Part shown: positions 588-36,710 of the stretch, piece after piece
Layout of the letters: each line of letters opens with the position of its first letter
How positions within the stretch are numbered: the first letter of the stretch is position 1
Origin: Antedon mediterranea
Taxonomy: Eukaryota > Animalia > Echinodermata
Assembly: GCF_964355755.1 (NCBI RefSeq)
Contig: NC_092673.1
Coordinates: 31,245,648 to 31,309,647 of the forward strand
Length of the DNA stretch: 64,000 nt
Direction of reading: 5' to 3'
The notes under the pieces: generated by a model
Databases searched by the model: none
What the model saw: only the letters and a program-made list of their open reading frames with translations
Told to the model about the DNA's origin: nothing
Translations under genes and position numbers: made by a program

Positions 588-2462
<1,875 letters not shown>

Positions 2463-14600: not shown

Positions 14601-17600
14601 GTAGTTTTAATCACTTTCCATAGAATAAAAATATTTTTATTTTTATTTATTTCCAAACCCAACCAACAGCAAAATAAATTCGCCAATAACAGGAGGGTAA
14701 ACACAAAACGGATACAAATACATGAACAATGCCAATAAAATATAATGTTTTCACTTATAAATAAATGGTTAAATCCAACCCAAAAGCGATTGGTTTTGCT
14801 TTAAATTATAGATTTTCAGGTAAATAACATTTCTTCCAATTAAATCCAATTTTTTTAAACTATTATGTGACATCAAAAAGGCAGATTCAACAAACATTTT
14901 TTTAAGAATTATTTTTTATTATAGGGGACAATAATCATTAAATAGAATAAAATTCAGTCCTGAGCCATCACTTCCCATTAGTGGATTTTTTTTTTCTTAG
15001 CATTTAAAACATTATAAATAAATTTGTAGTCAAATTCAATAGAGTTGACTTTATTAAGCCTATACTGACTTATCTCAAATTATAATAATAATGAATAATG
15101 TGATGTGGATATCAATCCAATATATACTGGATTTTGTTTTAATAAACCGACCCACGCATTGTGTTGTGTACTAATTTATAACCTGACCTATCTTTTTCTT
15201 ATTTGCTCCCACTATATATGTATACTGTACAATTAATGAAATATTTTAATAATAATTAAGAAATCATCTAATAATGCAAAAACAAAAATAAAATTATGAA
15301 TTTAAAAACATAGAAAGAAAATCCAAACAAGGATTTTTAAATTATAAATGAATAAAGTGTAACATTTTAATTTATTAAAGAACAACGCTGTGTAATATAT
15401 TCATTAAACTGCTTTACCACACAATCCAATAATTAATGTTTTATTACAACATTTATATAAACTGATTGTCATGACAACCACATAATAGATTACTGCAATC
15501 AACAAACGTATCGATTGTTACAATTTTTTGTGCGAGTGGGTTGGTTTGTGTGTACTATATGTAGAAGAAATCTTATTAATAACACTGTATGGAAATTAGT
15601 AATTCTTAAAAGTAATAATTATCGTATTTATTATTATTATTAATAATAATAAGACAATATTACAAATATAGATCTTTTGAAAAATATACAAATTGACTAC
15701 TATACTCAGTATTTGGAATTATGAATAATATAGCAAGTGGACACTCAATGCATTATTTTGTTACGCACTAACAGGGAACACGATACATTTAAATACACAC
15801 TGATCCTATTAGGTATCCATTGTTATGGATTAGTAACCATGGTAACGATAGTAACAGTCTATTCATAACTCATAGCAACACTATACACTAAAGTGTAATC
15901 AAAATTATTACCCGAATAAAGGCAATCATGTTTTTGACAAGTTAAGAGTCTTCCTATAAAGAAAGCATTAAATTTATTTTATTTCATTTTTTTTTATTGT
16001 AAATAACTTTTTATCATTGTCTAAAATCAATTGTATTATTTTACGAGTAGTCCTGTGAGGTATACCTCAATTATTTATATTATAAACTGAAACTGAAATT
16101 TAAGTATTTTTTTGCTTTAATTAAATTACATTTTTTTCAGGTAAATCATTTTTTTTCCAACCTAGTTTTTGGTCAAAGTGAATAACTATTACGTGACAAT
16201 AAAATGGCATATCCAACAAAAAAAATGTGAAAAAAAATTGTTAGGGGACAATCTTTAAATACTATTTAAAATGAAAATTGATTGTGTTTAGTGTTATTAA
16301 AGTATTATCGTGAATTTGAATGTACTATACAAAATAAAATACATTATATTTATTTACATTTTTCCTATGGAACGGACCGGACCTTCTTGTATAAGGTACT
16401 GTAGACAATTACAAACACCCTGGCTTTGTTAGTTGTTTGCGATAGCTCACCATAGCTACCATTTACACTAATTACCCTATGTGACGTGAGTGCATTGTGT
16501 TTGGCTTTCAACTATTGATCCTGAGAATAATAAGACTTGAAGTAGCTATACAAGGGCTGGGCTGTGATGTCAATGTCGTACTACTCATTGTAAATGTATA
16601 AAAGGCTTCCTTGAAAAGCTATTAAAGTATGGAAGGCTGTTTAAGTCAAATTAATGTTGTAATGATGGTGTACTATTACTAAATTAGTCCTATTTTTTGT
16701 ATGAATTAGTTTTTTAATACAGTCTATGGAAGGCTGTTTAAGTCAAATTAATGTTACTAGATGGCACGCTCGCTTCGCTCGCGTACCATCTAGGGGTGCT
16801 CACAGATGGTTCTCGAATACAGTAGAATCCACGGACGGGGACTTTTTTGGGACACTAAACAAAAACGGAAGTGTCCCCCTAATTGGGGTATTCAGAAATA
16901 GAGACAACAAAACCAATACTGGATTCCATAAAGGACAATTAATTTATGTGGATTAAAGAAATTAGGGAGAAATGGAAATGTATGTACGGGAATTGGGCGA
17001 CACGTGGTGGTGGTGATGGAACCACAGTAATAAAGTTGATTGTATTTATATATTATAAGAACCAAACTAAATAAATAGACCTAGACATTCTGCGAAATGA
17101 AAATCGGAAATGCAAGCTCCTATTCAGTGAAAAATTAAACTGTAGTCTACCTAAATATTTAGGGCAAATCATCGGTTGTGGTGTTGAAATTCCTGTAAAC
17201 ATTTGTGTGAACCAAACTGGGTCGAATTTCTGTCATGAGTACTGATTTGTTGGCCTGTGATTTATGACGCCTAAGGGATCTATCTAGACTTATTTTTTAG
17301 AATAATGTACGTACCTGTCAGATACAATTGTCTTGTGTCGTATAATAAATAAGTACTGTAATAGTTACTGAAGTTACTATTACAATCTCGTCAATGAAAA
17401 CACGAAAATGTATATGCACTTACTTATGAAAACGTATACAGCATTATACTCAGTTATTGAAACAGTAGGTTTAAAAGTTTCGTTTGTCTGTAAAATGATG
17501 TAATCAAGCTGTTTACATGAGTCTTAATTTATAAGCACATCAATAATAAAATAGTTTATCTATCCTGTAATTGGCGAGATTATGGTCGCTGTTGAATGAA

Positions 17601-20600
17601 ATAAAGCCAATCGGTATCATATTTGTACAGAAACGTTTTCGCGGCCGAAGGGTGTAACCTAAATTCGTTGTATTATCGTCAAGAACTAACTGTAACTAAA
17701 CTTACATAGAAAGTAGGGTATCATAAATTTGGCCTTAGCACTCGGGGGAGTGGCTAAGATGAAGTCCGTGGGACTACTAAATATAAATTGTAATGAACCT
17801 CGAGGGACATAAATAGGAATATTTCATGTTTCATTATCAATGTATAATAAATGGAAACTGTTTACCGATTCAAATAATAGAAATTGGTTTTTAACATTTT
17901 CCGAACCTATTGCAAGTTTATTCTCAAAGGGCCCATATATTTACCTACCGTATGTGTTAAACCAAGGGCTCATAAATTTACCTACAGTACTTGTGTTAAA
18001 CCAAACTCTGGCAGACTGAGAGATTGGGATGTTCCATTCATCGCAAATCAATACATTTGTATAATCGTATATTAAATCTATCAAAATAGTATTTTTTAAA
18101 GAAAATCGGCCTGTCTTCAACATTATGATGGTGTACTCTAGCAATCTATCAAAATAGTATTTTTTAAAGAAAATCGGCCTGTCTTCAACATTATGATGGT
18201 GTACTCTAGCTGTTCAACCGGTTTTCAGCTATTAAAAACAATTATCGTAGGAGGAGATAGGAAAATGCGAAGCCTCCTCGCTATGTAACATTAGGGTTGA
18301 GGGATGGGAAAGCGGATAGGTACAAAGAGGAACAATTTTTTAATATATTCTTTATCCACTGAGTAACGAAACATTTTGTTCATGTTTTATAGGCCTATAA
18401 ATAATATACCTCTAAATACAGTAGGCCTAAAACATTTGCGATTTAATACTTTGTTAAAACTGTCACTGTCATAATCAATTGAAATATTAAAGTACATGTC
18501 ACGATACACCACTACGACGTTTATATTTTTGGTAATTATTAATTAATACAAACGTTGAGAAGGAACTGTCAGTATAAAGTTTATTTGTATATCTAACAGT
18601 AGAGCCTATCCACAGTCTCAGTAATAAAGTTTATTTGTATATATTTTTATATTACATCTAACAGTACGAACATTCACAGTAAGAAATGTTCGATTCAAAT
18701 GAAAAATAGTTAATAGGTATTTACAGTATTGTCAAAGTATTGCAAGTTTATTCTCAAAGGGCCCATATATTTACCTACCGTATGTGTTCAAGGGCTCATA
18801 AATTTACCTACAGTACTTGTGTTAAACCAAACTCTGGCAGACTGAGAGATTGGGATGTTCCATTCATCGCAAATCAATACATTTGTATAATCGTATATTA
18901 AATCTATCAAAATAGTATTTTTTAAAGAAAATCGGCCTGTCTTCAACATTATGATGGTGTACTCTAGCTGTTCAACCGGTTTTCAGCTATTAAAAACAAT
19001 TATCGTAGGAGGAGATAGAAAAATGCGAAGCCTCCTCGCATTTTTTTGGCGGGTATTTTTCAAGACGGACATCCATTAGACAGTGTATACCACGATCGGA
19101 AAACACCCCTATTTGGGGCAAATCGTTTAACCTAAATTCGTTTTAATCGTCAATAACTAATTATTTAACTCAATTTAATTAGTAAACAGGGTTACATCAG
19201 GCGGTTAAAATCAGTACCGAAAGTACGAACCAACTTTACATACCATCGAGTGAAAATTCTAGAAGTAAGGCGCGATTTACCGAATTTTGCCCTTACGTAA
19301 ATTTATATATAGATAATGATGGTGTACTATTACTAAATTAGTCCTATGTCCTTTATGAATTAGTTTTAGGTTTTTTAATACAGTCTATGGAAGGCTGGTT
19401 AAGTCAAATTAAATATCATGATGGTGTTGGTGGAATATTCGTAAAATTAGTTTTTAATTTAAAGTCTACAGTATGGAAGGCTGACTAAGACAAATGCCAT
19501 AATGACAGTGTACTATCCTGAATCAGTCATTTACATTATTGGTTAGGTTTTCTGAATCTAAATATCTACTTTTTCTATGAGCCTATATAATAAGTCAAAT
19601 TAAATATCATAATGATGAAATCATATCCTATGTATTTGTTTATTTTTTATTAAGTGATAGAAGGTTGGTCGAGGTAAATGTCATCCACTAGAAAGAACAA
19701 AGAACGAGAATTATCCACGGTACAGTAATAATTAATGTGTTTATTTCTGGTTTCCCAGAACACATAATCATTTTTTTAACTGTGTGTGGGGCTGAAATAA
19801 GGTGGGACACTGGAAAAGAGGTGGGATCAGAGATGGTCCCTAAATAGAAACATAATTAGGAATTTTCCTTACCTGTGTTGTGGGACATTGGAACTGAAAT
19901 GAGGTGTGGCCACACATGGTCCATAGTTAGAAACATAATTAGGAATTTTCTTTACCTGTGTTGTGGGACATTGGAACTGAAATGAGGTGTGGCCACACAT
20001 GGTCCCTAGTTAGAAACATAAACAGGAATTTTCTTTACCTGTGTTGTGGGACATTGGAACTGAAACGTGGCGCTACCACTTGCACACTGCAACATGTCAA
20101 AGAAAAATAAATACGGCTTGTCACTGCAAAAAAAAATGTTAAAATAGTTTTAATTCAAAGATTATCTAATAGATGCAGAAAAGAAATGGTAAATTCATTA
20201 CATTTAAGAAATTACATCAGAAACAATACGAAAAAAGTCATTGAGATTGTCCAAAACAAAACATGATTTTGGATTATTATTTTTAAGAAAAAACTTTCTT
20301 CTTCTTAAATTCCAAATATGAAGAAGGTAATACATCCTAACCACACAGCATCATACAAATTATAGGGCTCAATCAATGATTAGTATGTTACAATTATTAG
20401 TAATATAGTAAGTTCGAGTCTCATCATGAAATTGGAAAAAAAATTATTATTAGAACAATATTTTCTTTTTGCAAAGAGGTTTTAGGTTTTTGTTTCCGTG
20501 AATTTGCTAAGTTCTCATCTAAGTCTCATCATGAAAACTTAATTAGAAAAACAATTATTATTCTTAGGTTTTAGGTGTTTGTCTCTGTGCGTGGTGTTGA

Positions 20601-22476
20601 TCGTATTGTAAGTAAAATAACAAGAATTTTCATCACTTACCTAACATCCCCAGTGTATCCACATATTTGACCTTTGGAATCTGTGGGGTACACGAGTTTG
20701 CGTGGGTCACCATCACTCCATCCTACAGTGCAAAAAAGTTATTTATCATTCCATGAAAGAAATATCCACTAAAAAAAAAGCCTATTAAAGAATATTCATG
20801 ATATTGATTTTTTCCTCTGGAATTATATCTATACTCTCGAAAATGATTTATGTTGTTTTTTTTTCCTTTTTTATAAACCATACACATAACAAAATTTATT
20901 AAGTCTATTTTTTATGGTTCACCAAAAAGAAAAAAGCACAAACATATGTCTAGCTATTATATACTGTTTCAAATAATTGATGGTGTTGTTTTGTACACTT
21001 ATGCTATACAATGCTATCTTGGAGTTGTTATTATTATACAGTATACAGTACACTCGAAATCTTGTTAAATACTGATAATACTATTTACTTATCAAACACA
21101 GAACTCTACTAACTGTGTAAAGTATTTAGCAATGTTTCCTACTTTAAATACTACAATAAAACAAAATGTCCCATTAGTAGTGTGTTCTCTGAATTTAAAG
21201 GGTTGGTAATAATTCACATCACATCACTTACAACATATGTTATACAGTATGATGTGACATCATTTTTTCTTAATTTTATTGTCCAGTTTATTCTGTTTTT
21301 GTAATTTTATATTGTTATTATATATATTATATATTTATATTGTTTCAAGATGCACCAACTTCTGTGTATGTATGTATTTTATACCCCTCATTTGATTTAA
21401 AGGTAAGTTTCCCTTTAAAATGGATTTTAGTTAGTTAATGTGATGGAAAAGACAATATAGGCAATATCTTATCAATTCAAATCACAAAATAATTAAGAAA
21501 TGTTAATTACAAATAACAAGGGCAATACTTTGTGATTACTAATTTACTTATTTATTACTGGTATTAGTATTTTAGTTAGTTAATGTGATAGAAAAGACAA
21601 TAAAAGGTAGGCAATAGGCCAATAATGACAATAGGCACTTAATGTGTGACGTACTCACTGGCCTACTGTATACAAATGTTATAATCACCGTCACAATCAA
21701 TACAGTTCCTTGACACTGACTTGCTATCAAGGTTGATCTAATCACGTTCTTATTTAGTTCAGCAACATTCAGGCTCGTCAATTAAGATGTAGACGAAATA
21801 CTAATTTTTTATACTTACCAATATATCCAGTTATAAACATTCCAACAATAAACGCTACAAAAATAATACAACAGATAACATCTGTACAGCTCCTAAAAAC
21901 AATAAAATACAGAAAAAACATTGGTTAAAAATACGGAATAACTATGTTATGTTAATTCAATATTATAACGTTACATTCAATAATTGTACATACCTGTTCT
22001 GAATTGGTCCTTTAAAATTTGGATCATACTTTGTTGGTTTCCCTAAAATGAAAACAAAAATATGAAAGAATTAGTAGGGCCTACATTTATAAATAATTCT
22101 GTTGTAGGCCTACTTCTATTTCTATATAATTAATATCTCTTCCGATCATAAAAAACAAATATCAATATCTCATCATTATCATTAATGCTTCAAACTTATT
22201 ATTTAAATGCATGCATTGTCTAAGCCTGATAAAATAAAATAACAATAGGTAGTGCATAATAATTGTACACTTTCTAGGCCCAGTTTGTCAAAAACAAAGC
22301 AGATGGTCATTGGTTATCAGTGAAGAAATCAAACCACCGTCTTCCCATGGTTTGCCTTCTTTTGTTGGCCTAGCCTTTCCTACAAAAACCACCTGCACTT
22401 GTTGGTTCATTCATAATATATACTTACCAAATTTGCTGTTATTATTATCTTCATCATCAACTTTATTAGATCCCAT
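5661..22476 (-). CDS. SLC44A4: Choline transporter-like protein (SLC44A2/A4/A5 group; 20 exons, 729 aa)
   Basis: Exons 22428-22476, 21994-22042, 21819-21892, 20641-20722, 20039-20123, 14347-14499, 14022-14094, 12323-12461, 12131-12214, 11605-11717, 11271-11393, 10015-10114, 9507-9599, 9269-9365, 8470-8711, 7620-7818, 7296-7369, 6581-6746, 6106-6190, 5661-5770 (2190 nt, open). Motifs [91 protein letters not shown]. Probably co-orthologous to vertebrate A2/A4/A5, so the symbol is approximate. Confidence 0.95.
6370..6552. mobile_element. MITE family A copy
   Basis: TIR agctctgtctacactatcaaac ... gtttgatagtatagacagagct; internal 20-bp repeats caaatatggtagtgatatgc. Confidence 0.8.
6795..7210. repeat. 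~18-bp minisatellite (gactagttttgacaagtt)n
   Basis: Tandem array filling most of SLC44 intron 17. Confidence 0.95.
7929..8070. mobile_element. MITE family A copy
   Basis: aagttctgtctacactatcaaact ... agtttggtagtttaaacagagttt imperfect TIRs. Confidence 0.75.
9366..9506 (-). other. U12-type (minor spliceosome) GT-AG intron in the SLC44 gene
   Basis: 5' splice site GTATCCTTT, branch site TCCTTGAC about 10 nt before the AG, no strong polypyrimidine tract; flanking exons join in frame (AIAL-YLAS). Confidence 0.9.
10211..10535. mobile_element. Kolobok-type MITE, degenerate copy
   Basis: Homologous to 10795-11135. Confidence 0.65.
10795..11135. mobile_element. Kolobok-type MITE with TTAA target duplication
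   Basis: ttaa|agatgtatgtccccc ... ggggacaatacatct|ttaa; further copies at about 10211, 14530, 16100 and 22915. Confidence 0.8.
11805..12122 (+). mobile_element. tRNA-derived SINE
   Basis: A-box-like tgaccgaatgg, B-box-like gtttcgaggccc, SINE-body motif taaaccgtaggtcc..gtgcaccttaaacaacc, A-rich 3' end. Confidence 0.7.
12750..13996. repeat. ~120-bp AT-rich satellite with variable (TAA)n and shorter subunits
   Basis: Repeated aaagtaaaagagccagaaagaagtttatgatgtttatgttaaatctaaaagcaatttactgaaaaaatgctgtggttatcagtggaga in SLC44 intron 7. Confidence 0.95.
14530..14940. mobile_element. Kolobok-type MITE, degenerate copy
   Basis: Homologous to 10795-11135; ends ggggacaataatcattaa. Confidence 0.6.
16757..19313 (-). 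mobile_element. Non-autonomous Helitron in SLC44 intron 5
   Basis: Minus strand begins A|TCTATATATA (19313) and ends with a GC-rich hairpin then CTAG|T (16757). No TSD; the joined flanks rebuild the neighbouring repeat unit aatgtt[a/g]taatgatggtgtactattact. Internal duplication 17908-18283 / 18738-19039. Confidence 0.85.
19845..20065. repeat. 83-bp tandem repeat duplicating the 3' end and donor site of SLC44 exon 5
   Basis: ttacctgtgttgtgggacattggaactgaaa occurs three times, with donors at 20038, 19955 and 19872. Confidence 0.9.
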
Positions 22477-23524: not shown

Positions 23525-24118
23525 GTATAAAGTAACTTTTATTATGAGTACTACATTAAATCTGGAAAACGTATTTCACAACGCTAAACAAAAATGTATC
23601 TTGTCGTTCGCTTCCTCTTGTACCACCGTCCACCGCACTGTCGCTCAGTCGTAGATGAACAGGCTCAGACCCCATAAGCCACAACAACCGTGAGGCAGAA
23701 TAATTCACGCCCCTTCGGTTTTGTAGTTCTGGGGGTCCTCAAGCCTTCTCACACACCCTCACTAGCACCCATGAACAGGGTGACTGCGGAATGCATACGG
23801 GTGGAGCCGACTCTCGGACCGAAAAAAAAAAGCGTGTTGTTTGCGAGTAGTTGTTACTCGGCAAATAAGGGGACGAAATCGCTCAAAAACGTTTCGTTTT
23901 ACCATGAAAGAGTATGTTACATACCTCCATGGTTTTTACCCTGAAGTCGATGTTACTTGAATGGCCCGTTGTTGGGATCGTAATAGGTTACCCTCATAGA
24001 GGGTCTGGCTGTACCTCTTGGTGTCAACATCGCTCCTGAAAAGCAGCTAAATGTCCAGAGGCGCGTGTGTTTCCACAGCCAGTTTAGTTGACTACTAAAC
24101 GAAGTGAGGCAATTAAAT
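23525..24118 (-). ncRNA. Putative structured Pol II ncRNA, copy 1 of an unrecognised family
   Basis: TATAAAA at 24140-24146, Inr TCATT about 28 nt downstream, series of hairpins 23636-24082, AATAAA at 23538-23543; paralogous to 25095-25669 and 26555-27050; no conserved ORF. Confidence 0.65.
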
Positions 24119-24139
24119 GATTAAGTCTGAACCCTGTCC

Positions 24140-24263
24140 TTTTATATCTTTGGTAATCGGTAGTGCAACGTAGCGTTACTGATTGCACAACCATTTCACC
24201 ATTAAATGTCCCTGGATAGTGTGTAGTAGAATGTTCGCGAAAATGAGTCAACATTTCCCTTTC
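24140..24263 (-). promoter_or_regulatory. Stress-type promoter of ncRNA copy 1
   Basis: TATA 24140-24146; C/EBP-like ATTGCACAA 24182-24190; perfect HSE aGAAtgTTCgcGAAa 24228-24242; AP-1 TGAGTCA 24244-24250; ISRE-like GAAAggGAAA 24254-24263. Confidence 0.7.
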
Positions 24264-24321
24264 CGATTTAACAAAATAGGCCTAATCATAATTTGAATTC
24301 CGTACAGTTTTCTCGTCACTA

Positions 24322-24790
24322 TTAAGCTTGGTTCCCACTACGACGCAACGCAAGGACGTAGACGCAACGCAAACCAGTTGACCAATGACAAGGGACCGTC
24401 AAATAAATCCCTCGCTTGTGATTGGTCAAATCCCTTACGTTGCGTTAAGTGGTTGTGTTCGTAGACATCAAATAAACGTACCTATTGTGTGTGTTTAAGC
24501 TTTAGTTCCCACTCGGACGTAAGCGCAACGTAAAGCGTGGTTCCCACTAGAACGCAACGCAGCGACGTATTGACGCAAAGTGATTGCGTAATCACAAGTG
24601 GGAACCGACGACGCAACAGTGCTGCAAACATCGCGGGTTTGATTTCACGCAACACAATTATTAAGGGCATGTTATGTTACGTAGGTTGCGTTGCTAGTGG
24701 TAACAAAGCTTAAGTAACTTGACCAATCACAAGCGATGGATTATCCGAACTGTCGCTTGCCATAGGTCAATTCGGTTGCGTTGCGCTTTA
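24322..24790. mobile_element. Nested or adjacent palindromic MITEs (AAGCTT..TTCCCACT family)
   Basis: taagcttggttcccact.., inner taagctttagttcccact (24497) ... agtggtaacaaagctta (24712), cgcaacgca/tgcgttgcg repeats. Confidence 0.7.
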
Positions 24791-25094
24791 ACGATAGATA
24801 TAATTTTTATTTATTAAAAATATAGTTTGAATTGTTTTAAGTTTCTTTTTTGTGTACACAATCATGCAGGACTTGTATTGTAAACAGTCATTGTATTTAT
24901 TATGATTGAATGTATATGAACGATGGGATATTAATGGCAAACCTTGGTACGGCGGGGACATCCCTATAAACGGCGCCGTAATTACATCATTTGACAAACT
25001 AAGCACCACACCACCACTGCCATTTATTGATTTAACGATTATATCCTTTCCACCCTAAGTTGTGTAAGGAGTAGGCCTACTATTAATATGGAAA

Positions 25095-25669
25095 TCAATG
25101 TTATTCGTTTATTTGTATTCGTTTAGAAAACGTATTTTACAAAGCACGCTACGTACTATTTCCATTTTCTTATTCATTATGTTAGGTCGGGGGTACCGGA
25201 CTGTCGCTCAGTCGTAGATGAAGAGGCTCAGATCCCATAAGCTACAACAACCGTGAGGCAGAATAATTCACGCCCCTTCGGTTTTGTAGTTCTGGGGGTC
25301 CTCAAGCCTTTCACACCCTCGCTAGCACCCATGAAAAGGTGACTGCGCGTTGCGTTCGGGTGTAGCCGACTCTCGGACCGAAAGAAAATGCGTGTTGTTG
25401 CGAGTAGTTACTCGGCAAATGAAGGGGGACGAAATCGTTCAAAAACGTTTCGTTTTACCATGAAAAGTATTGTTACATACCTCCATGGTTTTTACCCTTG
25501 AGTCGATGTTATTTGAATGGCCCGTTGTTGGGATCGTAGGTTACCCTCATAGAGGGTCTGGCTGTACCTCTTGGTGTCAACATCGCTCCTGAAAAGCAGC
25601 TAAATGTCCACGAGGCGCGTGTGTTTCCACAGCCAGTTTGGTTGTTTTAACGAAGGGAAGCATTGAAAT
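25095..25669 (-). ncRNA. Putative structured Pol II ncRNA, copy 2
   Basis: Close tandem paralogue of copy 1; TATAAAA 25689-25695, Inr TCATT at about 25669, AATAAA 25108-25113; many differences fall in loops or preserve pairing. Confidence 0.65.
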
Positions 25670-25688
25670 GATAAGTTTAAGCCTTCCT

Positions 25689-25817
25689 TTTTATAGCTTC
25701 AGTATCGGAGTCATGCAACGTAGCATTAACGATTGCTAAACAATTTCATCATTAAATATCCCTGGATAGTTTTGTAGAATGTTCGCGAAAATGAGTCAAT
25801 GATTGACATTTCCTTTC
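25689..25817 (-). promoter_or_regulatory. Stress-type promoter of ncRNA copy 2
   Basis: TATA 25689-25695; HSE aGAAtgTTCgcGAAa 25776-25790; AP-1 TGAGTCA 25792-25798; GAAAgGAAA 25809-25817. Confidence 0.7.
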
Positions 25818-26437
25818 CGATTCAATAATATAATTTGGATAATTCAAATGTACACTTCCTATTACATAATAGGCTAGTTCGTAGGTACACTATTACCTAT
25901 ACATACTATAGCTAAAAAATAATCGTAAACTATTAAACAAATAATTAGAATTAGAATTCAATTTAATAATGTACATCATTCAGATACACACAATTAAGTG
26001 CAAATCGAAAAAATCGTATACTACATAGAGTAAAGTAATCAAGATTTGTGTGCTTTTTTGGCATAGGAAGCCTACTTCCGATTATTCACGGTCGCATAAA
26101 ACTATGTGTTAGGGGTAAAGTACAGCATATGTATAATTATATAGTTGCATGTGGGCCATATTTAAATCCACGGATATCCGTGATATAGCCTGCAATTACA
26201 TACATCACACGTGAGTGATCGACGTCCGAAGCCCCTTCCCTCCCGTCAGCACCAAACTCGAAGTTCGAGCACGTATTATATTCGCTAACATCAATATAGG
26301 CCTACTAGGACTATAATTGCAACATACCTTTACTAAAAATGTAGAATAGTATAGGCTAGTAAATTTAATACTAGGCCTAGGCCTATATAGAACTTCTAAA
26401 GTGCAGACGTAGCCTAGTTAGTAAAATGTTAATATGG

Positions 26438-26531
26438 ATTCTAGAACAATCTATTATCGTGTACTTAGCGATGTCACCTATGACGTAATCAGGAAGCATT
26501 ACGCAATAAGTCACGTTCGGAAACTATATAA
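26438..26531 (+). promoter_or_regulatory. Promoter of ncRNA copy 3
   Basis: HSE-like aTTCtaGAAcaATCt 26438-26452; CRE-like TGACGTAA 26481-26488; C/EBP ATTACGCAAT 26498-26507; TATATAA 26525-26531. Confidence 0.65.
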
Positions 26532-26554
26532 GCAGACAATCACAACGCTGTAGA

Positions 26555-27050
26555 TCAAACTGAAACTCATCGTTAAAACAAAGATTTCTACTGGCTGGTA
26601 ACATTCCAAGCCTCGCGGGCTTTGCTGCTTTCCAGGAGCGATGACACCAAGAGGTACAGCCAGACAACAACCCTCTACGAGGGTTATCTTTCATAGACGT
26701 AACCGTGGTTTCAAGTAACATCTTGAAGGGCGGAACGGAACGCTTTTGAGCGTTTCGGCCCCCGGCTGGCTGAGCAAGAAAGGGAGGAGAGACTCGAGAT
26801 TGCTAGCATAAACGGATCCAGGGTACTATTCGCATGGATCACCAACTTTTCCGGTCCCAGGGTCGCGTGTCACCCACTTCTCCGCGCAGTCACCCTTTAA
26901 GGGTGCTAGCGGGGGTGGCCGTGGCCCCAGGACCCCCAATATTACAATGCATGATGAGCGTATATTGTTCTGCTTCATCGGTACTGTAATTAATGGGGGT
27001 TTTAAAATCATCATTTCAAGAATTGAAAATCGCCGATCCGAACTGAAGAA
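26555..27050 (+). ncRNA. Putative structured Pol II ncRNA, divergent copy 3 (3' end interrupted by a transposon)
   Basis: Shares CTGGCTG, GCTGCTTTYCAGGAGCGATG, ACACCAAGAGGTACAGCCAGAC, CCCTCTAYGAGGGT, TTCAAGTAACATC, GCAGTCACCC..GGGTGCTAG and AGGACCCCCA..ATGGG with copies 1/2 in the same order; oriented divergently from copy 2. Confidence 0.65.
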
Positions 27051-29269
27051 TATAGACCGGGCGCTCGGAAGATTTATTCATGTGAAAAGATACAAAAGGT
27101 TTGATGATGTAGTTAGGTGCGTATTAGGGTGAGATGCAATATTCGACATTGCTGCCGGGTCACAGCCTGTACATGGGGCCTGTGGGGATCATAACATAGG
27201 GGGGGGGGGGTAAAAATGCATTTATTCATGTTAAGCGATACAAGGATAAACTTTTTTGGATATCATTCGCAGTGGGCTACTAATGATTACATCACCAATG
27301 ACAGCAACTTTATCCTGTACGGGGCGCCAAACAGCAACGCCCAAATGGGTTTATTCATGTGAAGCGATACAAGGTTGAATCTTTTTTTAATGGCAGCAGT
27401 ACATATTGGGGATGACAAAAACACCAATGACAGCAACTTTATCCTGTACATAAGCTCAGACAGCAGCCCTAAAGGTCCGCAGTTTCCCCCTATTCGGCTA
27501 TATACTCGGCGCGTATGTCGTCTTATGGCGTTCAGCTGAGTTAGAAATACGCGATACGGACTCGGACTGACAATAAATACACAGTAGAATGATAAAACAA
27601 TAAATAAAGAGAGCAGTTGTTTGCTGTACCAAATCATCAAACATCAAACTCTTAGGAACTCGCCCAAAATGGGTTTATCCATGAAGTATGAATCATTTAA
27701 AAAAAAAGTTGTTTTTTTTTAACTTTATCCGGTACACAGCAGCTCAAATGCCCGAGGCTCCATTCGTGATCAACAATGTCGATAATACAAACACATTCAC
27801 GATAACGAGTGACTTTTATTTAATTGAAATATATCTTTATTTTGGAATAATAAATAACACCAACAAAAACACTTAAAATAACCAACAGCAGATTTGTATT
27901 TTAGGGTAACATTTTGAACAATCAATTTTATTTCAAAATCATTATTTCGATCAAAATAATATAATTTAAGAATATTTTTCAGATAAACTAAATAATTACA
28001 CTCATAATGATCGACACCGGTACCTATTATTGTACATTATTATTATAACTCGATTTAAATATTGTTTTAATTACACACTAGACACTATTATAGTGATATG
28101 TCTATATGAAAAAAGGCAACGAAATCTAAATTTGCAAGTGACATTTTTTAACATAATATAACATAATTGTAAAGTAAATAATAGTTCGAATTCAACATAA
28201 TCACTTAGAGAATTGGTAAGGTATAGATTAGACTATCGATTGCACACTATTACTGTATTTTTAACTCAATTTAAATTTAAAAAAGTAACCGTTTTCATGT
28301 GAATTAGACTGATAAAAACCAACAAAAAACTTAATCTGCCAACATTTTAAACATCGTTACTTGTCCATAATGGATCGACTACTGTACCGATGGATTACTG
28401 CACATTGTTTTACTTTAACTGAACCAAAGTCAAACTTTTAATTGTTACTGTACTAACATTAGACAGTGATATCTGATAAAAGGCAACATTAATTAATATT
28501 AATAATACTGAACCAAATTAAATATCGTTACTTATCCACAATGGATCGACTACTGTATTGATTATTGCACATTATTTTACTAACTAACATAAGAAAGTTA
28601 TATCTGATAAAACGCAACAAACTGAATCGAATTAAATATCGTTACTTATCCATAATGGATCGACTACTGTATTGATTACTGCACATTATTTTACTATAAC
28701 TGCCCAAGTCAAATTTAAAATTGTTACTGTACTAACATTAGACAGTGATATCTGCAACATACTCAGGACCAAATTAAATATCGTTACTTATCCACAATGG
28801 ATCGACTACTGTATTGATTATTGCACATTATTTTTCTCTAACTGAACCCAGGTCGAATACACTGTAAAAGCACAATTGTGCAAAGACATCGAGGTTACTG
28901 GCTGTATGCATTAAATAACTGAATATTGTTTTACACATTATTTTACTATAACTGCCCAAGTCAAATTTAAAATTGTTACATTAATAACACTGGACCAAAT
29001 TAAATATCGTTACTTATCTCTAACTGAACCCAGGTCGAATATTTTACATGCAGTGTAACTACCGACACACTGTAAAAGCACAATTGAGCAAAGACATCGA
29101 GGTTACTGGCTGTATGCATTAAATAACTAAATATTGTACATTCCTCATATTCCATTACTAGCTGAACAGAATACACGATATAATAAAACCAATAGGGGCT
29201 ATTGGATTTCTTTTTACATGATTTGTGACAGCGTCATTTATAAATTTGATTATATCACACTGTAATGAT

Positions 29270-29877
29270 ATTGGATTTTACCGCAAAGGCAAGTCAATCC
29301 CATTTACATATTATTTAGTGAAGGACAAGAAACATGTTGCTGCATTAAAATCGCTTTGTGGTGACAGGGTGGACAAACCCGCAGTCACTGCCTATGTATG
29401 CAAGATATATGGGTTTAAAAGCATGAACAGTATTAATGAGGCCAGGTACCAATCGTTTCGCAAAATGACAACTGGAAAGAAGAAATTCAAGAAGATCAAC
29501 TGTTCGTCATTGCCACCATGTGAAATCACAATCACCCAGCATCTGTTGAGGGCAAATTATGTATCTATTATGTGGAGACACGCTCATACTCCTCAGCCAA
29601 CACAAAACCTACAGTGACCCATTAAACTATGGATGGGTTGATAATGGTGATGGAAGGTATGTACCTAAATGGTTTAATAAAAAATGCTCTACCAGATACG
29701 TTGACTAGTGATCCACACTCGGAACAAAGTGCTGAATCAAACACAGTTCTTGACGATACTGATGCAGGAATATTGGAACAAAGTGATGATGAAGAACTTG
29801 AAATAATAGATTTTGAAGCTGAAATCGATGATGACCAACCTTGGAGTGATGACAGTGAAAGTGACGATGACGAATAG
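29270..29877 (+). pseudogene. Academ transposase C-terminal fragment (disrupted)
   Basis: FYRKGK..YVCKIYG..SINEARYQSF..LPPC..QHLLRANYVSIMW..P.NYGW..YVPKWF then an acidic tail; in-frame stop at 29615 and a frameshift; N-terminus missing. Confidence 0.75.
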
Positions 29878-31986
29878 ATAAACTCAAAAGATTAAGCATT
29901 ACGGCTGATTTAATAGTTTTTAATCGTTTACATAAAACATTTGAGAGTTTTGAAGTAAATATTGTATAATATTATATCAAATGTAAATACTGAACTATTT
30001 GATCCACAGATAGTTGGCAAGAAGAATCCAGTATCATTACAGTGTGATATAATCAGATTTATAAATGACGCTGTCACAAATCATGTAAAAAGAAATCCAA
30101 TAGCCCCTATTGGTTTTATTATATCGTGTATTCTGTTTAGCTAGTAACAATGGAATATGATGAATGTACAATATTCAGTTATTTAATGCATACAGCCAGT
30201 AACCTCGATGTCTTTGCACAATTGTGCTTTTACAGTGTATTCGACCTGGGTTCAGTTAGAGAAAAATAATGTGCAATAATCAATACAGTAGTCGATCCAT
30301 TGTGGATAAGTAACGATATTTAATTTGGTCCAGTATTATTAATGTTGCCTTTTATCAGATATCACTGTATAATGTTAGTACAGTAACAATTTTAAATTTG
30401 AATTGGGCAGTTAAAGTAAAATAATGTACAATAATCAATACAGTAGTCGATCCATTGTGGATAAGTAACGATATTTAATTTGGTCCAGTATTATTAATGT
30501 TGCCTTTTATCAGCTATCACTGTATAATGTTAGTACAGTAACAATTTTAAATTTGAATTGGGCAGTTAAAGTAAAATAATGTGCAATAATCGATACAGTA
30601 GTCGATCCATTATGGATAAGTAACGATATTTAATTTGGTCCTGACTGAGTATGTTGCAATTTATCAGATATCACTGTATAATGTTAGTACAGTAACAATT
30701 TTAAATTTGAATTGGGCAGTTAAAGTAAAATAATGTACAATAATCAATACAGTAGTCGATCCATTGTGGATAAGTAACGATATTTAATTTGGTCCAGTAT
30801 TATTAATGTTGCCTTTTATCAGCTATCACTGTATAATGTTAGTACAGTAACAATTTTAAATTTGAATTGGGCAGTTAAAGTAAAATAATGTGCAATAATC
30901 GATACAGTAGTCGATCCATTATGGATAAGTAACGATATTTAATTTGGTCCTGACTGAGTATGTTGCATTTTATCAGATATCACTGTATAATGTTAGTACA
31001 GTAACAATTTTAAATTTGACTAGGGCAGTTATAGTAAAATAATGTGCAATAATCAATACAGTAGTCGATCCATTGTGGATAAGTAACGATATTTAATTTG
31101 GTTCAGTATTATTAATATTAATTAATGTTGCCTTTTATCAGATATCACTGTCTAATGTTAGTACAGTAACAATTACAAATTTGACTTTGTTTCAGTTAAA
31201 GTAAAACAATGAGCAGTAATCAATACAGTAGTCGATCCATTATGGACAAGTAACGATGTTTAAAATGTTGGCAGATTAAGTTATTTGTTGGTTTTTATCA
31301 GTCTAATTCACATGAAAACGGTTACTTTTTTAAAATTTAAATTGAGTTAAAAATACAGTAATAGTGTGCAATCGATAGTCTAATCTATACCTTACCAATT
31401 CTCTAAGTGATTATGTTGAATTCGAACTATTATTTACTTTACTATTATGTTATGTTATGTTAAAAAATGTTGCAAATTTAGATTTCGTTGCCTTTTTTCA
31501 TATAGACATATCACTAAGTGTCTAGTGTGTAATTAAAACAATATTTAAATCGAGTTATAATAATAATGTACAATAATCGGTACCGGTGTCGATCATTATG
31601 AGTGTAATTATTTAGTTTATCTGAAAAATATTCTTAAATTATATTATTTTGATCGAAATAATGATTTTGATATAATACTGATTGTTCAAAATGTTACCCT
31701 AAAATACAAATCTGCTGTTGGTTATTTTAAGTGTTTTTGTTGGTATTATTTATTATTCCAAAATAAAGATATACCCTGTAATTATTTCAATTATAAAATA
31801 AAAGTCACTCGTTATCGTGAATGTGTGGGCATTTGAGCTGCTGTGTACCGGATAAAGTGAAAAAAAAAACAACATTTTTTCAAAAATGATTACACACTTC
31901 ATGGATAAACCCATTTTGGGCGAGTTCCTAAGAGTTTGATGTTTGATGATTTGGCACAGGAAACAACTGCTCTCTTTATTTATTGT

Positions 31987-32469
31987 CATCATGAATGTGT
32001 CACAGAGGGTGCAGTACCAGGTAGGCTGCATAGCTTTTAAAGCCATGAACAATATTGCCCCTCGATACATCACCCAACGATTTTCCACTGTTCCGATACA
32101 CTCTATGAGGACTAGGGCTGCTTCCAGGGGAGACTTACTGGTACCCAAAGTTAAATTGGAATGTTTCCGGCGCTCTTTTATTTATTCTGCTTGTATTTTA
32201 TATAATGTATTACCTTCTGTTTTGAAAGAATGTACCAATATTAACTCGTTTAAATTTAATTTTAAAAAAACACATTTTATCGTAATTGTTTAATTGTATA
32301 TAATAGTTTTAAATTTAAATGTATATAGTAGATTCGTATTAGTTAAGTATAGTTTTATATATTTTGTCATTTTTAAGAGGGCCCCTGAATATCAGCTGGC
32401 CTGCGGGTTCAGCTGGAAGGGTTACCCTCTATAAATAAAGTTGAAATAAAAATAAAATAAATAAATAAA
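31987..32469 (+). mobile_element. 5'-truncated CR1/L2-type LINE inserted in the right TIR
   Basis: ORF2 C-terminus FKAMNNIAPRYI..HSMRTR..RRSFIYSACILYNVLP..SFK, 3' stem-loop agaggg..ccctct, (AAATA)n tail, flanking attgt duplication; absent from the left arm. Confidence 0.85.
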
Positions 32470-35400
32470 ATTGTTTTAGCATTCTACTGTGTATTTATTG
32501 TCAGTCCGAGTACGTATTTCTAACTCAGCTGAACGCTATTAGACGACATACGCGCCGAGTATATAGCCGAATAGGTGGAAACTGCGGACCTTTAGGGCTG
32601 CTGTCTGAGCTTATGTACAGGATAAAGTTGCTGTCATTGGTGTTTTTGTCATCCCCAATATATACTGCTGCCATTAAAAAAAGATTCAACCTTGTATCGT
32701 GCTGTTTGGCGCCCCGTACAGGATAAAGTTGCTGTCATTGGTGATGTAATCATTAGTAGCCCACTGCGAATGATATCCAAAAAAGTTTATCCTTGTATCG
32801 CTTCACATAAATAAATGCATTTTTACCCCCCTATGTTATGATCCCCACAGGCCCTATGTACAGGCTGTGACCCGGCAGCAATGTCGAATATTGTTTCTCG
32901 CCCTAATACGCACCTAACTACATCATCAAACCTTTTGTATCTTTTCACATGAATAAATCTTCCGGGCGCCCGGTCTTATAATAGCCGGTTAAGAAAAATG
33001 GGAACGTTCGTGTTGTGTGCGTTTAGAGATTTTACATTCACATCACCAATGTCCATCCAGAATTTTGAGAGGGGGAGAGGATGGTCGAAATGTAATAAGC
33101 GCTAAATTTAAAACAATCCGATCATTTTCATTGCCAGGTTCTCAATTTGGAGGTACTGTATATCCGCCTCATCATGCAGTTTTCTAAATATTAATCTATA
33201 TATGTTATCTTAGACAGATTTTAAGTTTTAACTTGGATTTACTTTCGAGATTAATTTGTACATTGACATTATTAAAAGTGAGTGATACGCCTGAATTTTC
33301 GCAATTATCATAATTATACAGATTCCGTAAATTGAAAAAAAAATGTAGCGTTATTTGCTTTTCTTTTTCATGATTAGGCCTACGTCTCCGTTTCGATCAC
33401 CCTCTACTTAATAACATGTCTCGATAACTTAAAAACTCTTATTACACGATAAAAAAGATTATAATAGGCCTACTTATACATTTCGAACTATCTCAAGTCT
33501 TCTGGCTGCTCATATAATTGCTTTATTACGAAGAAAATTATATTACATTAATTTGTGACGAAATGTGTTTTCACCAACCATAAATGTACATAACTCGATC
33601 GCCGCTAATTGGTAGACTACGCATACTGTATATATACACTATTTTTGGTACTTGTAATGAGCCGTTGGGGCGTGTGTGAAGACAGTGAAACTTTTATTGG
33701 CGCGCTTTTCCAAAATAGACACTCAGCTACTATAGGCGGGCCTATTTTCACCTCTTACCGTGCCTATATACACCCTCTCTAAAATATCACTAAAAACATT
33801 TATATGCTCATATCCAAGAATAACAATAACATTATTTTAAATATCATTTTTATTAAAAAGCAGAATGTAGGCCTATGTAAGGGGAAAAAATACCGGGCGT
33901 ATCCTTTAAATAGAAATACAGTATAACGTTTTCGTCTGATGAATATAAATAAAAAATACACAGCATCACAATACTGAAACTGTATTGAAAATATCAATAT
34001 CACATTGTTACGTGCACTGTGTTCAATGGGCTTAACTACAATAATATCTATCGATTAAAGTTTTGCCTTAGAAAAAACAGTTCGTAAAATACATTAAACT
34101 GAAACGACTACTCACTTTGTGGGTTTTTATTACTATAGGCCTTTTGTTGTAGATCTTTTATTTTTCTCCAACTCATGTTTTACTGACGGTTTATTTTCAA
34201 AATAAACCCAAACGGTTTTATTTTTACAAAACTCTTTTTTTTCAAATACTGTATTTAAAATTGAATTAAATATAGAAGAGCCTACAATCTTATTTTATAT
34301 GCATATAGGCCTATATGAAGAATGAAGTACATATATATTGAAGAATATAATACTGTGTATATTAAAAGGTTTATTATTCTAATAAATTATGTATTTATTC
34401 ATTATTCAAACTACACAGATGTCCCTCTCAGAGGGACTCTATGCAGGCATAGCATTGTCACTGACAACCGAAAATAATTAAATATTGGTTAACAAAACAA
34501 ACATTTCTTTAGTTACTTGATTAGAAATGTCACTAACTCGTTGAGAGCGAATATTCTGTAGCAATTAGTAAGATGCAAGATCATTTTCTTGTAGTCATCA
34601 ATATCATTGATTTTGTTGCTATATTTGTATTATAATGTATTCACTATTGATGGCTATTTGATACAGTGCCATTAAAGTATATGCTCTATTGTTCAGCATC
34701 ATAAACAATAAATTTGGTGAGTGGTATTGTAATACACAGACCATTATAGAAAGATATTGAACTGAGACATAATAGACGAGGTCTGTCTACATTTGCTTTT
34801 GAAAATGATGATAACAATTTTAAAAATCTTTGAAATGTTGGGCCAGGAACACTATTGGATAAAAGATAACAAAGTAATACAAAATACTTAGAAAGATTGT
34901 GGTGAAATACTATGGCCGGAATTCATGGTAAACAAATTCAGCATTTGAAGTTTGAAGTTACCAAGGAAGAAAATACAATAGGTATAACAGAGATGCTTCA
35001 GTGAAGAAGTTGGTGTTTTGAGAAAACAATGTTCAGATTCAAGGACAAAAACTGGAGAAAATTAACAGTTTCAGTAACCAACCAATCTTCTTATGCTGAA
35101 GACATTTGGTCTTTGGTAGAGGACCAGTTTGTAATCTTTTTGGATGGTTTCAATACAACCGGATATCAATACTACTTGTGATAGGCAGTATTGCAATGCT
35201 CAAAGAAGATGATGAAGATGAATAAAAAATAGGAGACGTTTTCTAAAGGAAATTTTCAAGATATACACATTGGTGGAAAAGATGTGAAAGGACAAGGTAA
35301 GATTTCAATAACGTTTAATCCTTAAAAACGAGATAGAAACTTGTGAATGCATCCAAGAAAGTTTCACCATCAAGACTCAAATTTTGGTCATCTCTGTTTT

Positions 35401-35554
35401 GATTTGAACAATTATTAAAATGCAATACATTTGCAACAGTGAGAATGATAAAATATTCAAGAATGAGAAAGTTTCAATGAAGACTCAAATCTATTAAATA
35501 TATAAATTCTCAATTCGACCAGTTTACACAACTAAAAAAATGAAATGATTTGCG

Positions 35555-36710
35555 ACAGTGAGAATGAAAAAATTAGCAAGAACGAGAAAATGAGCAAGAG
35601 TGAGAAAATGAGCAAGATCGAAAAAATTGAGCAAGAGTGAGAAAATGAGCAAGAACGAAAAATTGAGCAAGAGTGAGAAAATGAGCAAGAACGAGAAATG
35701 AGCACGAGCGAGAAAATGAGCACGAGCGAGAAAATGAGCACGAGCGAGAAAATGAGCACGAGCGAGAAAATGTGCTAGAGCGAGAAAATGAGCAAGAGCG
35801 AGAAAATGAGCAAGAACGAAAAAATGAGCAAGAGCGAGAAAATGAGCAAGAACGAAAAAAATGAGCAAGAGTGAGAAAATGAGCAAGAACGAACAAATGA
35901 GCATGAGTGAGAAAATGAGCAAGAACGAAAAAAATGAGCAAGGGCGAGAAAATGAGCAAGAGCGAGTTAATGAGCACGAGCGAGAAAATGAGAAAGAGCG
36001 AGAAAATGAGAAAGAGTGAGAAAATGAGAAAGAGTGAGAAAATGATCAAGAGCGAAAAAAATGAGCACGAGCGAGAAAATGGGCAAGAGTGAGAAAATAA
36101 GCACGAGCGAGAAAATGAGCACGAGCGAGAAAATGAGCAAGAGTGAGAAAATGAGCAAGAGTGAGAAAATGAGCAAGAACGAAAAAATGAGCAAGAATGA
36201 GAAAATGAGCAAGAACGAAAAAAATGAGCAAGAGTGAGAAAATGAGCAAGAACGAAAAATGAGCACGAGTGAGAAAATGAGCAAGAACGAAAAAAATGAG
36301 CAAGGGCGAGAAAATGAGCAAGAGCGAGTTAATGAGCACGAGCGAGAAAATGAGCACGAGCGGGAAAATGAGAAAGAGTGAGAAAATGAGAAAGAGTGAG
36401 AAAATGATCAAGAGCGAAAAAAATGAGCAAGAGTGAGAAAATAAGCACGAGCGAGAAAATGAGCACGAGCGAGAAAATGAGCACGAGCGAGAAAATGAGC
36501 AAGAGTGAGAAAATGAGCACGAGCGAGAAAATGAGCACGAGTGAGAAAATGAGCAAGAGCGAGAAAATGAGCAAGAGTGAGAAAATGAGCAAGAGCGAGA
36601 AAATGAGCAAGAGTGAGAAAATGAGCAAGAGTGAGAAAATGAGTGAGAGTGAGAAAAAGAGTAAGAAAATAAGTAAGAGTGAGAAAATGAGCAAGAGTGA
36701 GAAAATGAGC
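35555..36710. repeat. 18-bp minisatellite (gagaaaatgagcaagagt)n
   Basis: Tandem array; accounts for the repetitive ORFs on both strands. Confidence 0.97.

What the first reader, a model, noticed from the sequence alone, without database searches (positions are those of the whole stretch)
24140..26531. All three RNA genes carry stress/immune-type promoters, one built from a non-homologous sequence
Seen: copies 1 and 2 both retain a perfect three-unit heat-shock element directly beside an AP-1 site about 80-100 nt upstream of TATA, plus C/EBP-like and ISRE-like motifs, while the spacer DNA has drifted. Copy 3's promoter does not align yet has HSE-like, CRE-like and C/EBP sites ahead of TATATAA. 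Copies 2 and 3 point away from a shared ~830-bp interval. Established: HSE plus TATA is the architecture of HSF1 target promoters. Inference: these RNAs are induced by heat, stress or infection, loosely like hsr-omega but compact and structured.
Basis: partly seen in the sequence, partly recalled or inferred. Interest (0 to 1): 0.75.

Follow-up and report, generated by a model that had tools for sequence, protein, structure and literature searches.

The report
Heat-shock RNA genes with tiny ORF
Three related DNA units in a likely echinoderm genome each have a TATA-box promoter with a heat-shock-factor site (perfect in two, imperfect in the third), a 24-25-codon reading frame and a predicted folded RNA tail that matches no catalogued RNA family; they likely make heat-stress-induced RNAs resembling the fly's hsr-omega, while the proposed immune control has little support.

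Summary
The motifs are there. Copies 1 and 2 have a perfect three-unit HSE 82-83 nt and an AP-1 site 97-98 nt upstream of TATA, in a 26/26 identical block (spacer 75%, flanks 45-54%, RNA core 92%). They are duplicates, so this is one origin. The ISRE-like spacing and the C/EBP site are broken in copy 2, so 'immune-type' is weak. Copy 3's promoter does not align overall, but it has a one-mismatch HSE at nearly the same place, so 'non-homologous' is not established. New here: about 86-89 nt after the predicted start, each unit opens a 24-25-codon ORF ending at a conserved stop. All three indels inside it are multiples of three (5 of 36 in control duplicates). A fold with compensatory pairs lies 3' of the stop. 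No Rfam, viral or metagenome relative was found, and orthologs could not be searched. Best reading: a small family of Pol II, probably HSF1-induced, structured RNAs with a translated micro-ORF, working like Drosophila hsr-omega-c but not a member of it. Induction and translation are untested.

The parts
24226..24251 (-). Copy 1 AP-1 (24244-24250) plus perfect three-unit HSE (24229-24241)
   Evidence: 26/26 identical to copy 2
24254..24263 (-). ISRE-like GAAAnnGAAA, copy 1 only
   Evidence: spacing lost in copy 2 (25809-25817)
24183..24190 (.). C/EBP-like site, copy 1; degenerate in copy 2 (25732-25740)
24139..24146 (-). Copy 1 TATA box; initiator-like TCATTT at 24120-24115, predicted start about 24118
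   Evidence: 3 of 142 TATA matches in the window have TCAKTY at this spacing; copies 1 and 2 each show it
23637..24118 (-). Copy 1 predicted RNA, conserved core; AATAAA at 23543-23538 would extend it to about 590 nt
   Evidence: (z -3.3)
23953..24030 (-). Copy 1 first-AUG ORF, 25 codons (MLTPRGTARPSMRVTYYDPNNGPFK)
23990..24004 (-). Hairpin B, 6 bp with UAU loop; fits the Roquin CDE shape but lies inside the ORF
23664..23831 (-). Copy 1 pyrimidine tract and long hairpin domains F and G; second shared AUG at 23675
25773..25799 (-). Copy 2 AP-1 (25792-25798) plus perfect HSE (25777-25789)
25688..25695 (-). Copy 2 TATA box; initiator-like TCATTT at 25671-25666
25200..25669 (-). Copy 2 predicted RNA core (414/450 columns identical to copy 1); AATAAA at 25113-25108
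25509..25583 (-). Copy 2 ORF, 24 codons; a further AUG lies about 6 nt from the predicted cap, in another frame
26439..26451 (+). Copy 3 HSE with one mismatch, 74 nt before TATA
26481..26507 (+). Copy 3 CRE/ATF-like site (26481-26488) and C/EBP site (26499-26507)
26525..26532 (+). Copy 3 TATA box; initiator-like TCAAACT at 26555
26557..27005 (+). Copy 3 predicted RNA, diverged paralog with the same domain order; 3' end unclear because a transposon starts at 27054
   Evidence: (z -4.8)
26641..26718 (+). Copy 3 first-AUG ORF, 25 codons (MTPRGTARQQPSTRVIFHRRNRGFK)

Best explanation
These are three paralogous units with TATA/initiator-type promoters that likely make heat-shock-factor-induced RNA polymerase II transcripts of about 450-600 nt, in which a 24-25-codon ORF is likely translated and a predicted multi-hairpin 3' region likely acts as RNA. 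Shown: the motifs, their conservation, the ORFs and their frame-keeping indels, and compensatory pairs. Inferred: HSF1 binds the HSE under heat or proteotoxic stress (about 0.65 for copies 1/2, 0.45 for copy 3), with bZIP factors (AP-1 in copies 1/2, C/EBP-ATF in copy 3) as helpers. Also inferred: ribosomes read the ORF (about 0.55), which would unwind hairpins A and B and stop on the conserved UUC-AAR-UAA block. The act of translation rather than the peptide would then tie the RNA's fold or lifetime to the cell's translation state, as proposed for hsr-omega-c, while domains D-G bind proteins not yet identified.
For: Promoter block 26/26 against spacer 61/81 and flanks 30/66 and 88/164. The downstream flanks are still faintly homologous (1/500 shuffles), so the duplication covered them and they decayed while promoter and RNA did not. 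TATA plus initiator-like geometry occurs in all three. Folding z-scores favour the TATA-defined strand in 6 of 6 segments. In domains F+G, 116 of 120 cells pair and 4 of 40 pairs change on both sides (12/500 shuffles; slid controls give 0-1 such pairs). The ORF keeps its frame through 3 of 3 indels (3, 6, 3 nt), against 5 of 36 multiples of three in other duplicated DNA of the window (cubed 0.003) and 3 of 18 in copy 1/2 gaps outside the ORF (counted). The one substitution between the copy 1 and copy 2 ORFs is synonymous (AAG/AAA). In a variant of copy 3 from run X1, 1 of 10 substitutions falls in the 143 of 279 three-way conserved columns (p=0.009). DNA runs X2-X4 show single near-identical contigs over the units, against over 100 over the nearby MITE. 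Weak hint: X1, whose RNA status is only a guess, has contigs over the interiors of copies 1 and 3.
Against: No induction, binding, start-site or ribosome data. Copies 1 and 2 are one origin, and gene conversion could also keep blocks identical. Only three sequences support the structure, which was drawn from them, and the tool warns that relatedness alone can beat the shuffles. Domains A+B show 0 of 29 double changes. Of 19 copy 1/2 substitutions, 6 break a pair predicted in copy 1, 5 keep one and 8 are unpaired. The ORF was noticed after the fact and rests on three indels. Its start codon is predicted mostly paired, and its invariant codons are also helix strands. Copy 2 has an extra AUG near the cap. 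X1 also has contigs over the copy 1 promoter and the copy 2 3' flank, which DNA would give. Copy 3 has no AATAAA before the transposon. Most HSE motifs are unbound in flies.
Confidence: 0.5

Rival explanations
1. Real structured Pol II RNA genes, but purely non-coding and/or not stress-induced: the ORF is a by-product of structural constraint, and the HSE is unbound or gives only basal activity.
For: The ORF's invariant part coincides with helices A and B; the peptide's middle diverges; no Pfam match near cut-off and no PDB match; fewer than 15% of fly HSEs are bound.
Against: 3 of 3 in-frame indels and a conserved in-frame stop; 26/26 HSE+AP-1 block; an HSE at the same position in copy 3 (chance about 0.01 within 15 bp, 0.05 within 150 bp).
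Confidence: 0.25
2. Immune-response RNAs: induced by infection through bZIP, IRF or NF-kB sites and degraded quickly through a Roquin/Regnase stem-loop.
For: Hairpin B fits the strict CDE pattern (6-8 Watson-Crick pairs, YRY loop, three upper Y-R pairs; PMC6294493 passages). The only 3 strict matches among 31 relaxed ones in 128 kb are the three copies. AP-1 and C/EBP sites are present, and a kB-type site lies at 24955-24964.
Against: Hairpin B lies inside the ORF, whereas CDEs are described in 3' UTRs. The ISRE spacing is lost in copy 2. The kB site is about 800 bp from copy 1's TATA, beyond a MITE, and is 1 of 8 in the window. The longest uninterrupted predicted helix is 9 bp, too short for long-dsRNA sensors (recalled).
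Confidence: 0.12
3. Copies 1 and 2 are alternative first exons of the SLC44A choline-transporter-like gene just downstream: a stress promoter, a uORF and a structured leader, spliced from the second AUG into exon 2.
For: Same strand as SLC44A and 1.2 kb upstream of its start codon. Copy 1/2 identity ends exactly at ACA|GT, which would be a phase-1 donor matching exon 2's phase. A second AUG is shared by all three copies.
Against: The donors are poor matches to the consensus (recalled). SLC44A has its own coding exon 1 with a consensus donor at 22476-22428. Copy 3 faces the other way, with no gene found downstream. AATAAA follows copies 1 and 2 within 100 nt.
Confidence: 0.07
4. Relics of a virus or retroelement leader (IRES-like) or of a transposon, with the promoter motifs inherited from an LTR.
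For: About 450 nt of multi-domain structure with a pyrimidine tract and an AUG at the base of the last hairpin recalls viral UTRs (recalled resemblance).
Against: No Rfam match at gathering score, and only two unrelated weak matches at E<=10. No relative in four viral and one metagenome pattern scans. Type 2 IRES features are absent. Low copy in DNA runs. No LTR pair or long ORF in the units.
Confidence: 0.06

Closest known systems
Drosophila hsr-omega cytoplasmic RNA (omega-c / omega 3) with ORF-omega
   Same: Heat-shock-inducible gene whose RNA carries one tiny ORF of 23-27 codons, divergent in sequence but kept in position; translation itself was proposed to matter more than the peptide (PMC9865238 passages; PMC2115576 abstract only). 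Here: HSE+TATA and a 24-25-codon first ORF.
   Different: hsr-omega is a single-copy Drosophila gene with an intron, a 1.2-kb cytoplasmic RNA and a long nuclear RNA with 280-bp tandem repeats. Here there are three compact copies, no tandem repeat array, no intron found, a fold with compensatory pairs, and an echinoderm-like host. No sequence comparison with hsr-omega was possible.
HSF1-driven non-coding RNAs of mammals (SatIII, TERRA, SINE RNAs, eRNAs, NEAT1)
   Same: HSF1 sites driving RNAs without long ORFs (PMC9032817 abstract and passages).
   Different: Those are repeat-derived, Pol III, enhancer or very long nuclear RNAs; the passages seen list no compact, low-copy, structured TATA gene.
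Roquin constitutive decay element (CDE)
   Same: Hairpin B meets both the original and the relaxed consensus in all three copies.
   Different: It lies inside the predicted ORF, not in a 3' UTR; binding is untested.
Picornavirus type 2 IRES; uORF 'zipper' leader of mammalian cat-1 (the latter recalled, no call)
   Same: About 450 nt, multi-domain, pyrimidine tract, distal AUG; a short ORF overlapping a 5' hairpin.
   Different: No GNRA tetraloop, no Yn-Xm-AUG spacing, no J-K junction, and no long downstream ORF.

Membership tests
HSF1 target promoter | Three inverted nGAAn units in the proximal promoter | tested here: met
   Perfect in copies 1 and 2, one mismatch in copy 3
HSF1 target promoter | TATA box and initiator at Pol II spacing | tested here: met
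HSF1 target promoter | HSF1 occupancy and heat induction | not testable with these tools
   Only contig-level runs were available
HSF1 target promoter | Motif conservation at orthologous loci | not testable with these tools
   No genome held; all listed runs were of one organism; only paralogs compared
Interferon/NF-kB-type immune promoter | ISRE or kB site kept across copies near the TATA box | tested here: not met
   ISRE spacing in copy 1 only; kB site distal and single
hsr-omega | Short ORF of 23-27 codons in the 5' part | tested here: met
   24-25 codons in all three copies
hsr-omega | Long 280-bp tandem repeat array and conserved intron | tested here: not met
   No tandem array in or behind the units; no consensus donor found at the unit ends
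hsr-omega | Sequence homology or synteny with the Drosophila locus | not testable with these tools
   No insect genome available; Rfam negative
Animal telomerase RNA | Telomere template shared by all copies | tested here: not met
   No CCCTAA in copies 1/2; a TAACCTA there is not kept in copy 3
Animal telomerase RNA / H/ACA RNA | Hairpin, H box, hairpin, ACA three nt from the 3' end | tested here: not met
   ACA at the end of copy 1/2 homology, but the only 3' ANANNA lies inside helix G and copy 3 shares neither; defining features from PMC4712671 passages
Type 2 IRES | GNRA tetraloop, A-rich J-K wedge, Yn-Xm-AUG with 18-20 nt spacer | tested here: not met
   No GNRA loop in any minimum-energy fold; shared AUG about 145 nt after the pyrimidine tract; features from PMC11436067 and PMC13018306 passages
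Roquin CDE | 6-8 bp stem without G-U, YRN triloop | tested here: met
Roquin CDE | Located in a 3' UTR | tested here: not met
   Inside the first-AUG ORF
Any Rfam 15 family | Covariance-model match | tested here: not met
   0 at gathering score; 2 unrelated hits at E 3.5 and 6.6
Transposon / SINE | High copy number, terminal repeats or tRNA head | tested here: not met
   Single contigs in DNA runs; no fourth copy in the window; no tRNA

The most novel reading that the evidence does not exclude
An undescribed animal family of heat-shock-induced RNA switches. A ribosome running through a 25-codon ORF unzips the 5' hairpins and halts on the conserved UUCAAR block, which can otherwise pair with the domain D loop (6 bp possible in all three copies, with two G-U to A-U changes in copy 2). 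This would set the fold of a viral-UTR-like 3' scaffold that captures translation or decay factors during stress. It would be a deuterostome counterpart of hsr-omega-c that arose independently and whose structure can be probed.
Probability: 0.15. Interest if true: 0.87.

Novelty: new variant of a known kind. Interest (0 to 1): 0.66.

Why it matters
Why hsr-omega-c is translated without a detectable product has been open since 1989 (PMC2115576, abstract), and the passages read describe that design only in Drosophila. A compact, three-copy, structured version in a likely echinoderm, with a defined HSE, ORF and helices, would show the design recurs and make it testable by point mutation. At the least it is an uncatalogued structured RNA family in an animal, under selection on promoter, frame and fold.

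Tried and rejected
No whole genome is held, so copies outside the window and orthologs were not searched directly. Run search: no RNA holder listed; 5 runs of one organism from 2 studies, all kept as contigs; this says nothing on expression. Whether X1 is RNA, and whether copies 1/2 splice to SLC44A, stays open because no spliced region was laid. Pattern scans: viral contigs gave 0, 6, 1 and 0 loci, metagenomes 6 loci. BLAST of 12 of these 13 loci and both covariance models on all 13 matched only the motif itself, so they are chance. Models R1 and R2 found no fourth copy in the window: the best unrelated hits were E 0.18 and 1.3, and three R2 hits at E 0.014-0.12 are the antisense strands of the copies. 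Rejected: telomerase RNA, H/ACA RNA, type 2 IRES, tRNA/SINE head (see membership tests). Pri-miRNA was rejected by inspection, since the invariant 22-mer lies at the base of a bulged hairpin. Recalled resemblances to the EMCV J domain, the histone stem-loop and the hairpin ribozyme were not tested by alignment and got no Rfam support. Pfam on 62 short ORFs gave nothing at cut-off; a TGF-beta-like look at 40127-40252 was not supported, and the scan also missed two presumed SLC44A exons, so it is insensitive. Earlier scan notes: nothing on this locus or its relatives. Literature: 'heat shock element'+'noncoding RNA'+'echinoderm' gave 0 papers; listings showed no description of this RNA. The library lacks most subscription papers and no supplements were read, so absence from print is not proven.

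Full report
Setting. The window is AT-rich animal DNA. MORN5 exons lie at about 590-2460(-). Among 51 fetched homologs, the best summed match is Amphiura filiformis, 151/175 identical against 74-79% for molluscs, so the host is probably an echinoderm. An SLC44A choline-transporter-like gene (PF04515 for the exon at 8469-8711) runs on the minus strand, with its presumed coding exon 1 at 22476-22428 (family N-terminus recalled). The three units lie upstream of it. Copy 1 (24118-23637) and copy 2 (25669-25200) are on minus, copy 3 (26557 to about 27005) on plus. A high-copy MITE-like element (24322-24790) and a 5.9-kb long-inverted-repeat element (27054-32976) interrupt the flanks.

Check of the observation. 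Copies 1 and 2 have a perfect three-unit HSE and an adjacent AP-1 site at 83/82 and 98/97 nt from TATA, and the TATA boxes of copies 2 and 3 are 829 bp apart. The pairing is far above chance as one event (about 8e-6 in simulation; the window's own HSE rate is about five times the simulated one, and 16 patterns were scanned). The AP-1+HSE block is 26/26 identical, the HSE-TATA spacer 61/81, TATA to first helix 39/56, the RNA core 414/450, and the flanks 30/66 and 88/164. The downstream flanks are still faintly homologous, so the contrast points to selection or conversion rather than a short duplication. The ISRE-like spacing and the C/EBP site of copy 1 are degraded in copy 2. Copy 3's promoter does not align above shuffles (40/500, 87/500) and lacks AP-1. 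It does have a one-mismatch HSE 74 nt from TATA within a 15-nt block found only in the three promoters (23 such one-mismatch sites in the window, chance about 0.05 within 150 bp). It is more likely a diverged homolog that kept TATA and HSE and changed its bZIP sites than a non-homologous promoter.

The transcript. All three have an initiator-like site with its A at position 27-33 counted from the first T of TATA. Copies 1 and 2 have AATAAA within 100 nt of the end of homology; AATAAA occurs about 2 per kb, so this is weak. Internal T runs of 4-10 nt argue against Pol III (inference). Folding is stronger than shuffles (z -3.3 and -4.8) and favours the TATA-defined strand in 6 of 6 segments. Domain order is shared: long hairpin A, short hairpin B, a conserved linker, domains D and E, a pyrimidine tract, and adjacent long hairpins F and G. 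In F+G, 116 of 120 cells pair and 4 of 40 pairs change on both sides (three rows, structure drawn from them, one helix misaligned by a column in copy 3). A+B shows no double change (0 of 29), and 6 of 19 copy 1/2 substitutions break a pair predicted for copy 1. A copy 3 variant in run X1 puts 1 of 10 substitutions in three-way conserved columns (p=0.009); it may be an allele or another paralog. DNA runs show single contigs over the units, so this is not an abundant repeat. X1, only guessed to be RNA, has contigs over the interiors of copies 1 and 3 but also over a promoter and a flank, which is a weak hint at best.

The first AUG in copies 1 and 3, and the matching AUG in copy 2 (which has one more AUG next to the cap), lies 85-89 nt from the predicted start. 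It opens an ORF of 25, 24 and 25 codons that ends at the conserved UUC-AAR-UAA. The three length changes inside the ORF are 3, 6 and 3 nt. Multiples of three make up 5 of 36 indels in other duplicated DNA of the window (3 of 10 region pairs gave no alignment) and 3 of 18 copy 1/2 gaps outside the ORF. The peptide's middle diverges between copies 1/2 and 3, and it matches no Pfam family or PDB chain. This fits an ORF whose position and length matter more than its product. Hairpin B fits the Roquin CDE shape, uniquely so in the window, but lies inside this ORF.

Mechanism. Most likely (0.5): HSF1-responsive Pol II genes that make a capped, probably polyadenylated RNA. Ribosomes read the micro-ORF and open hairpins A and B, and the 3' domains act as RNA, with translation coupling the fold or lifetime of the RNA to the cell's state. 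The motifs, conservation, ORF and pair changes are shown; induction, translation and partners are inferred. Rivals: non-coding or non-inducible RNA genes (0.25), immune-induced RNAs with a decay element (0.12), alternative first exons of SLC44A (0.07), viral or retroelement relic (0.06).

Comparison with what is known. No Rfam family matches, and no viral or metagenome relative was found. Telomerase RNA, H/ACA RNA and type 2 IRES fail on tested features. The nearest working analogy is Drosophila hsr-omega-c: heat-inducible, with a 23-27-codon ORF of divergent sequence (PMC9865238, passages) that is translated without detectable product (PMC2115576, abstract only). It is not a member of that family: no repeat array, no intron found, different phylum, three compact structured copies. 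The HSF1 non-coding targets listed in PMC9032817 (abstract and passages) include nothing of this form. Calibration: under 15% of strong HSE motifs are bound in flies (PMC2936546, passages). PMC4712671, PMC6294493, PMC11436067 and PMC13018306 were seen as passages; other papers only as search listings. No supplements were read.

Verdict. The heat-shock reading is plausible; the immune reading and the 'non-homologous promoter' claim are weak. The underlying object is an uncatalogued structured RNA family with a conserved micro-ORF. Interest 0.66.

Noticed in passing
window 24322-24790: MITE-like element with about 85-nt imperfect inverted ends, very abundant in the genome (over 100 contigs per DNA run), inserted about 80 bp upstream of copy 1's HSE; a related piece lies at 1239-1341 inside MORN5.
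   Followed up: partly
window 27054-32976: 5.9-kb element with inverted arms over 2 kb long containing internal tandem repeats, around a central decayed ORF region (29222-29877); Foldback-like DNA transposon; no Pfam hit. It sits about 50 nt behind copy 3.
   Followed up: partly
window 590-2460 and 6576-22476 (minus): MORN5 and an SLC44A choline-transporter-like gene in tandem; MORN5 is closest to Amphiura filiformis among named hits.
   Followed up: partly
window 24955-24964: Consensus kB-type site between copy 2's 3' end and the MITE; before the MITE inserted it would have been about 340 bp from copy 1's TATA.
   Followed up: no
window 23565-23581 and 25125-25141: A 17-nt block about 60 nt past the end of the RNA core is kept between copies 1 and 2 in otherwise decayed flank, just before AATAAA; possibly a 3' processing signal.
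   Followed up: no
window 24196-24223 and 25747-25770: A second conserved promoter block (TATCCAGGGAYATTTAATG) between HSE and TATA in copies 1 and 2 that matches none of the motifs scanned.
   Followed up: no
window 19252-19264 and 61255-61267: Two other perfect three-unit HSE matches with no tested link to a promoter.
   Followed up: no
window 34401-34458 (minus): Isolated 7-bp hairpin resembling hairpin B; weak hit of both models (E 0.18, 1.5), probably chance.
   Followed up: partly
window 35430-36750 and 58780-60050: Two related purine-rich minisatellites (18-nt and 24/27-nt units) with strong strand skew; they account for most long spurious ORFs.
   Followed up: no
whole window: The palindrome TAGGCCTA occurs 22 times in 64 kb, far more than base composition suggests.
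   Followed up: no
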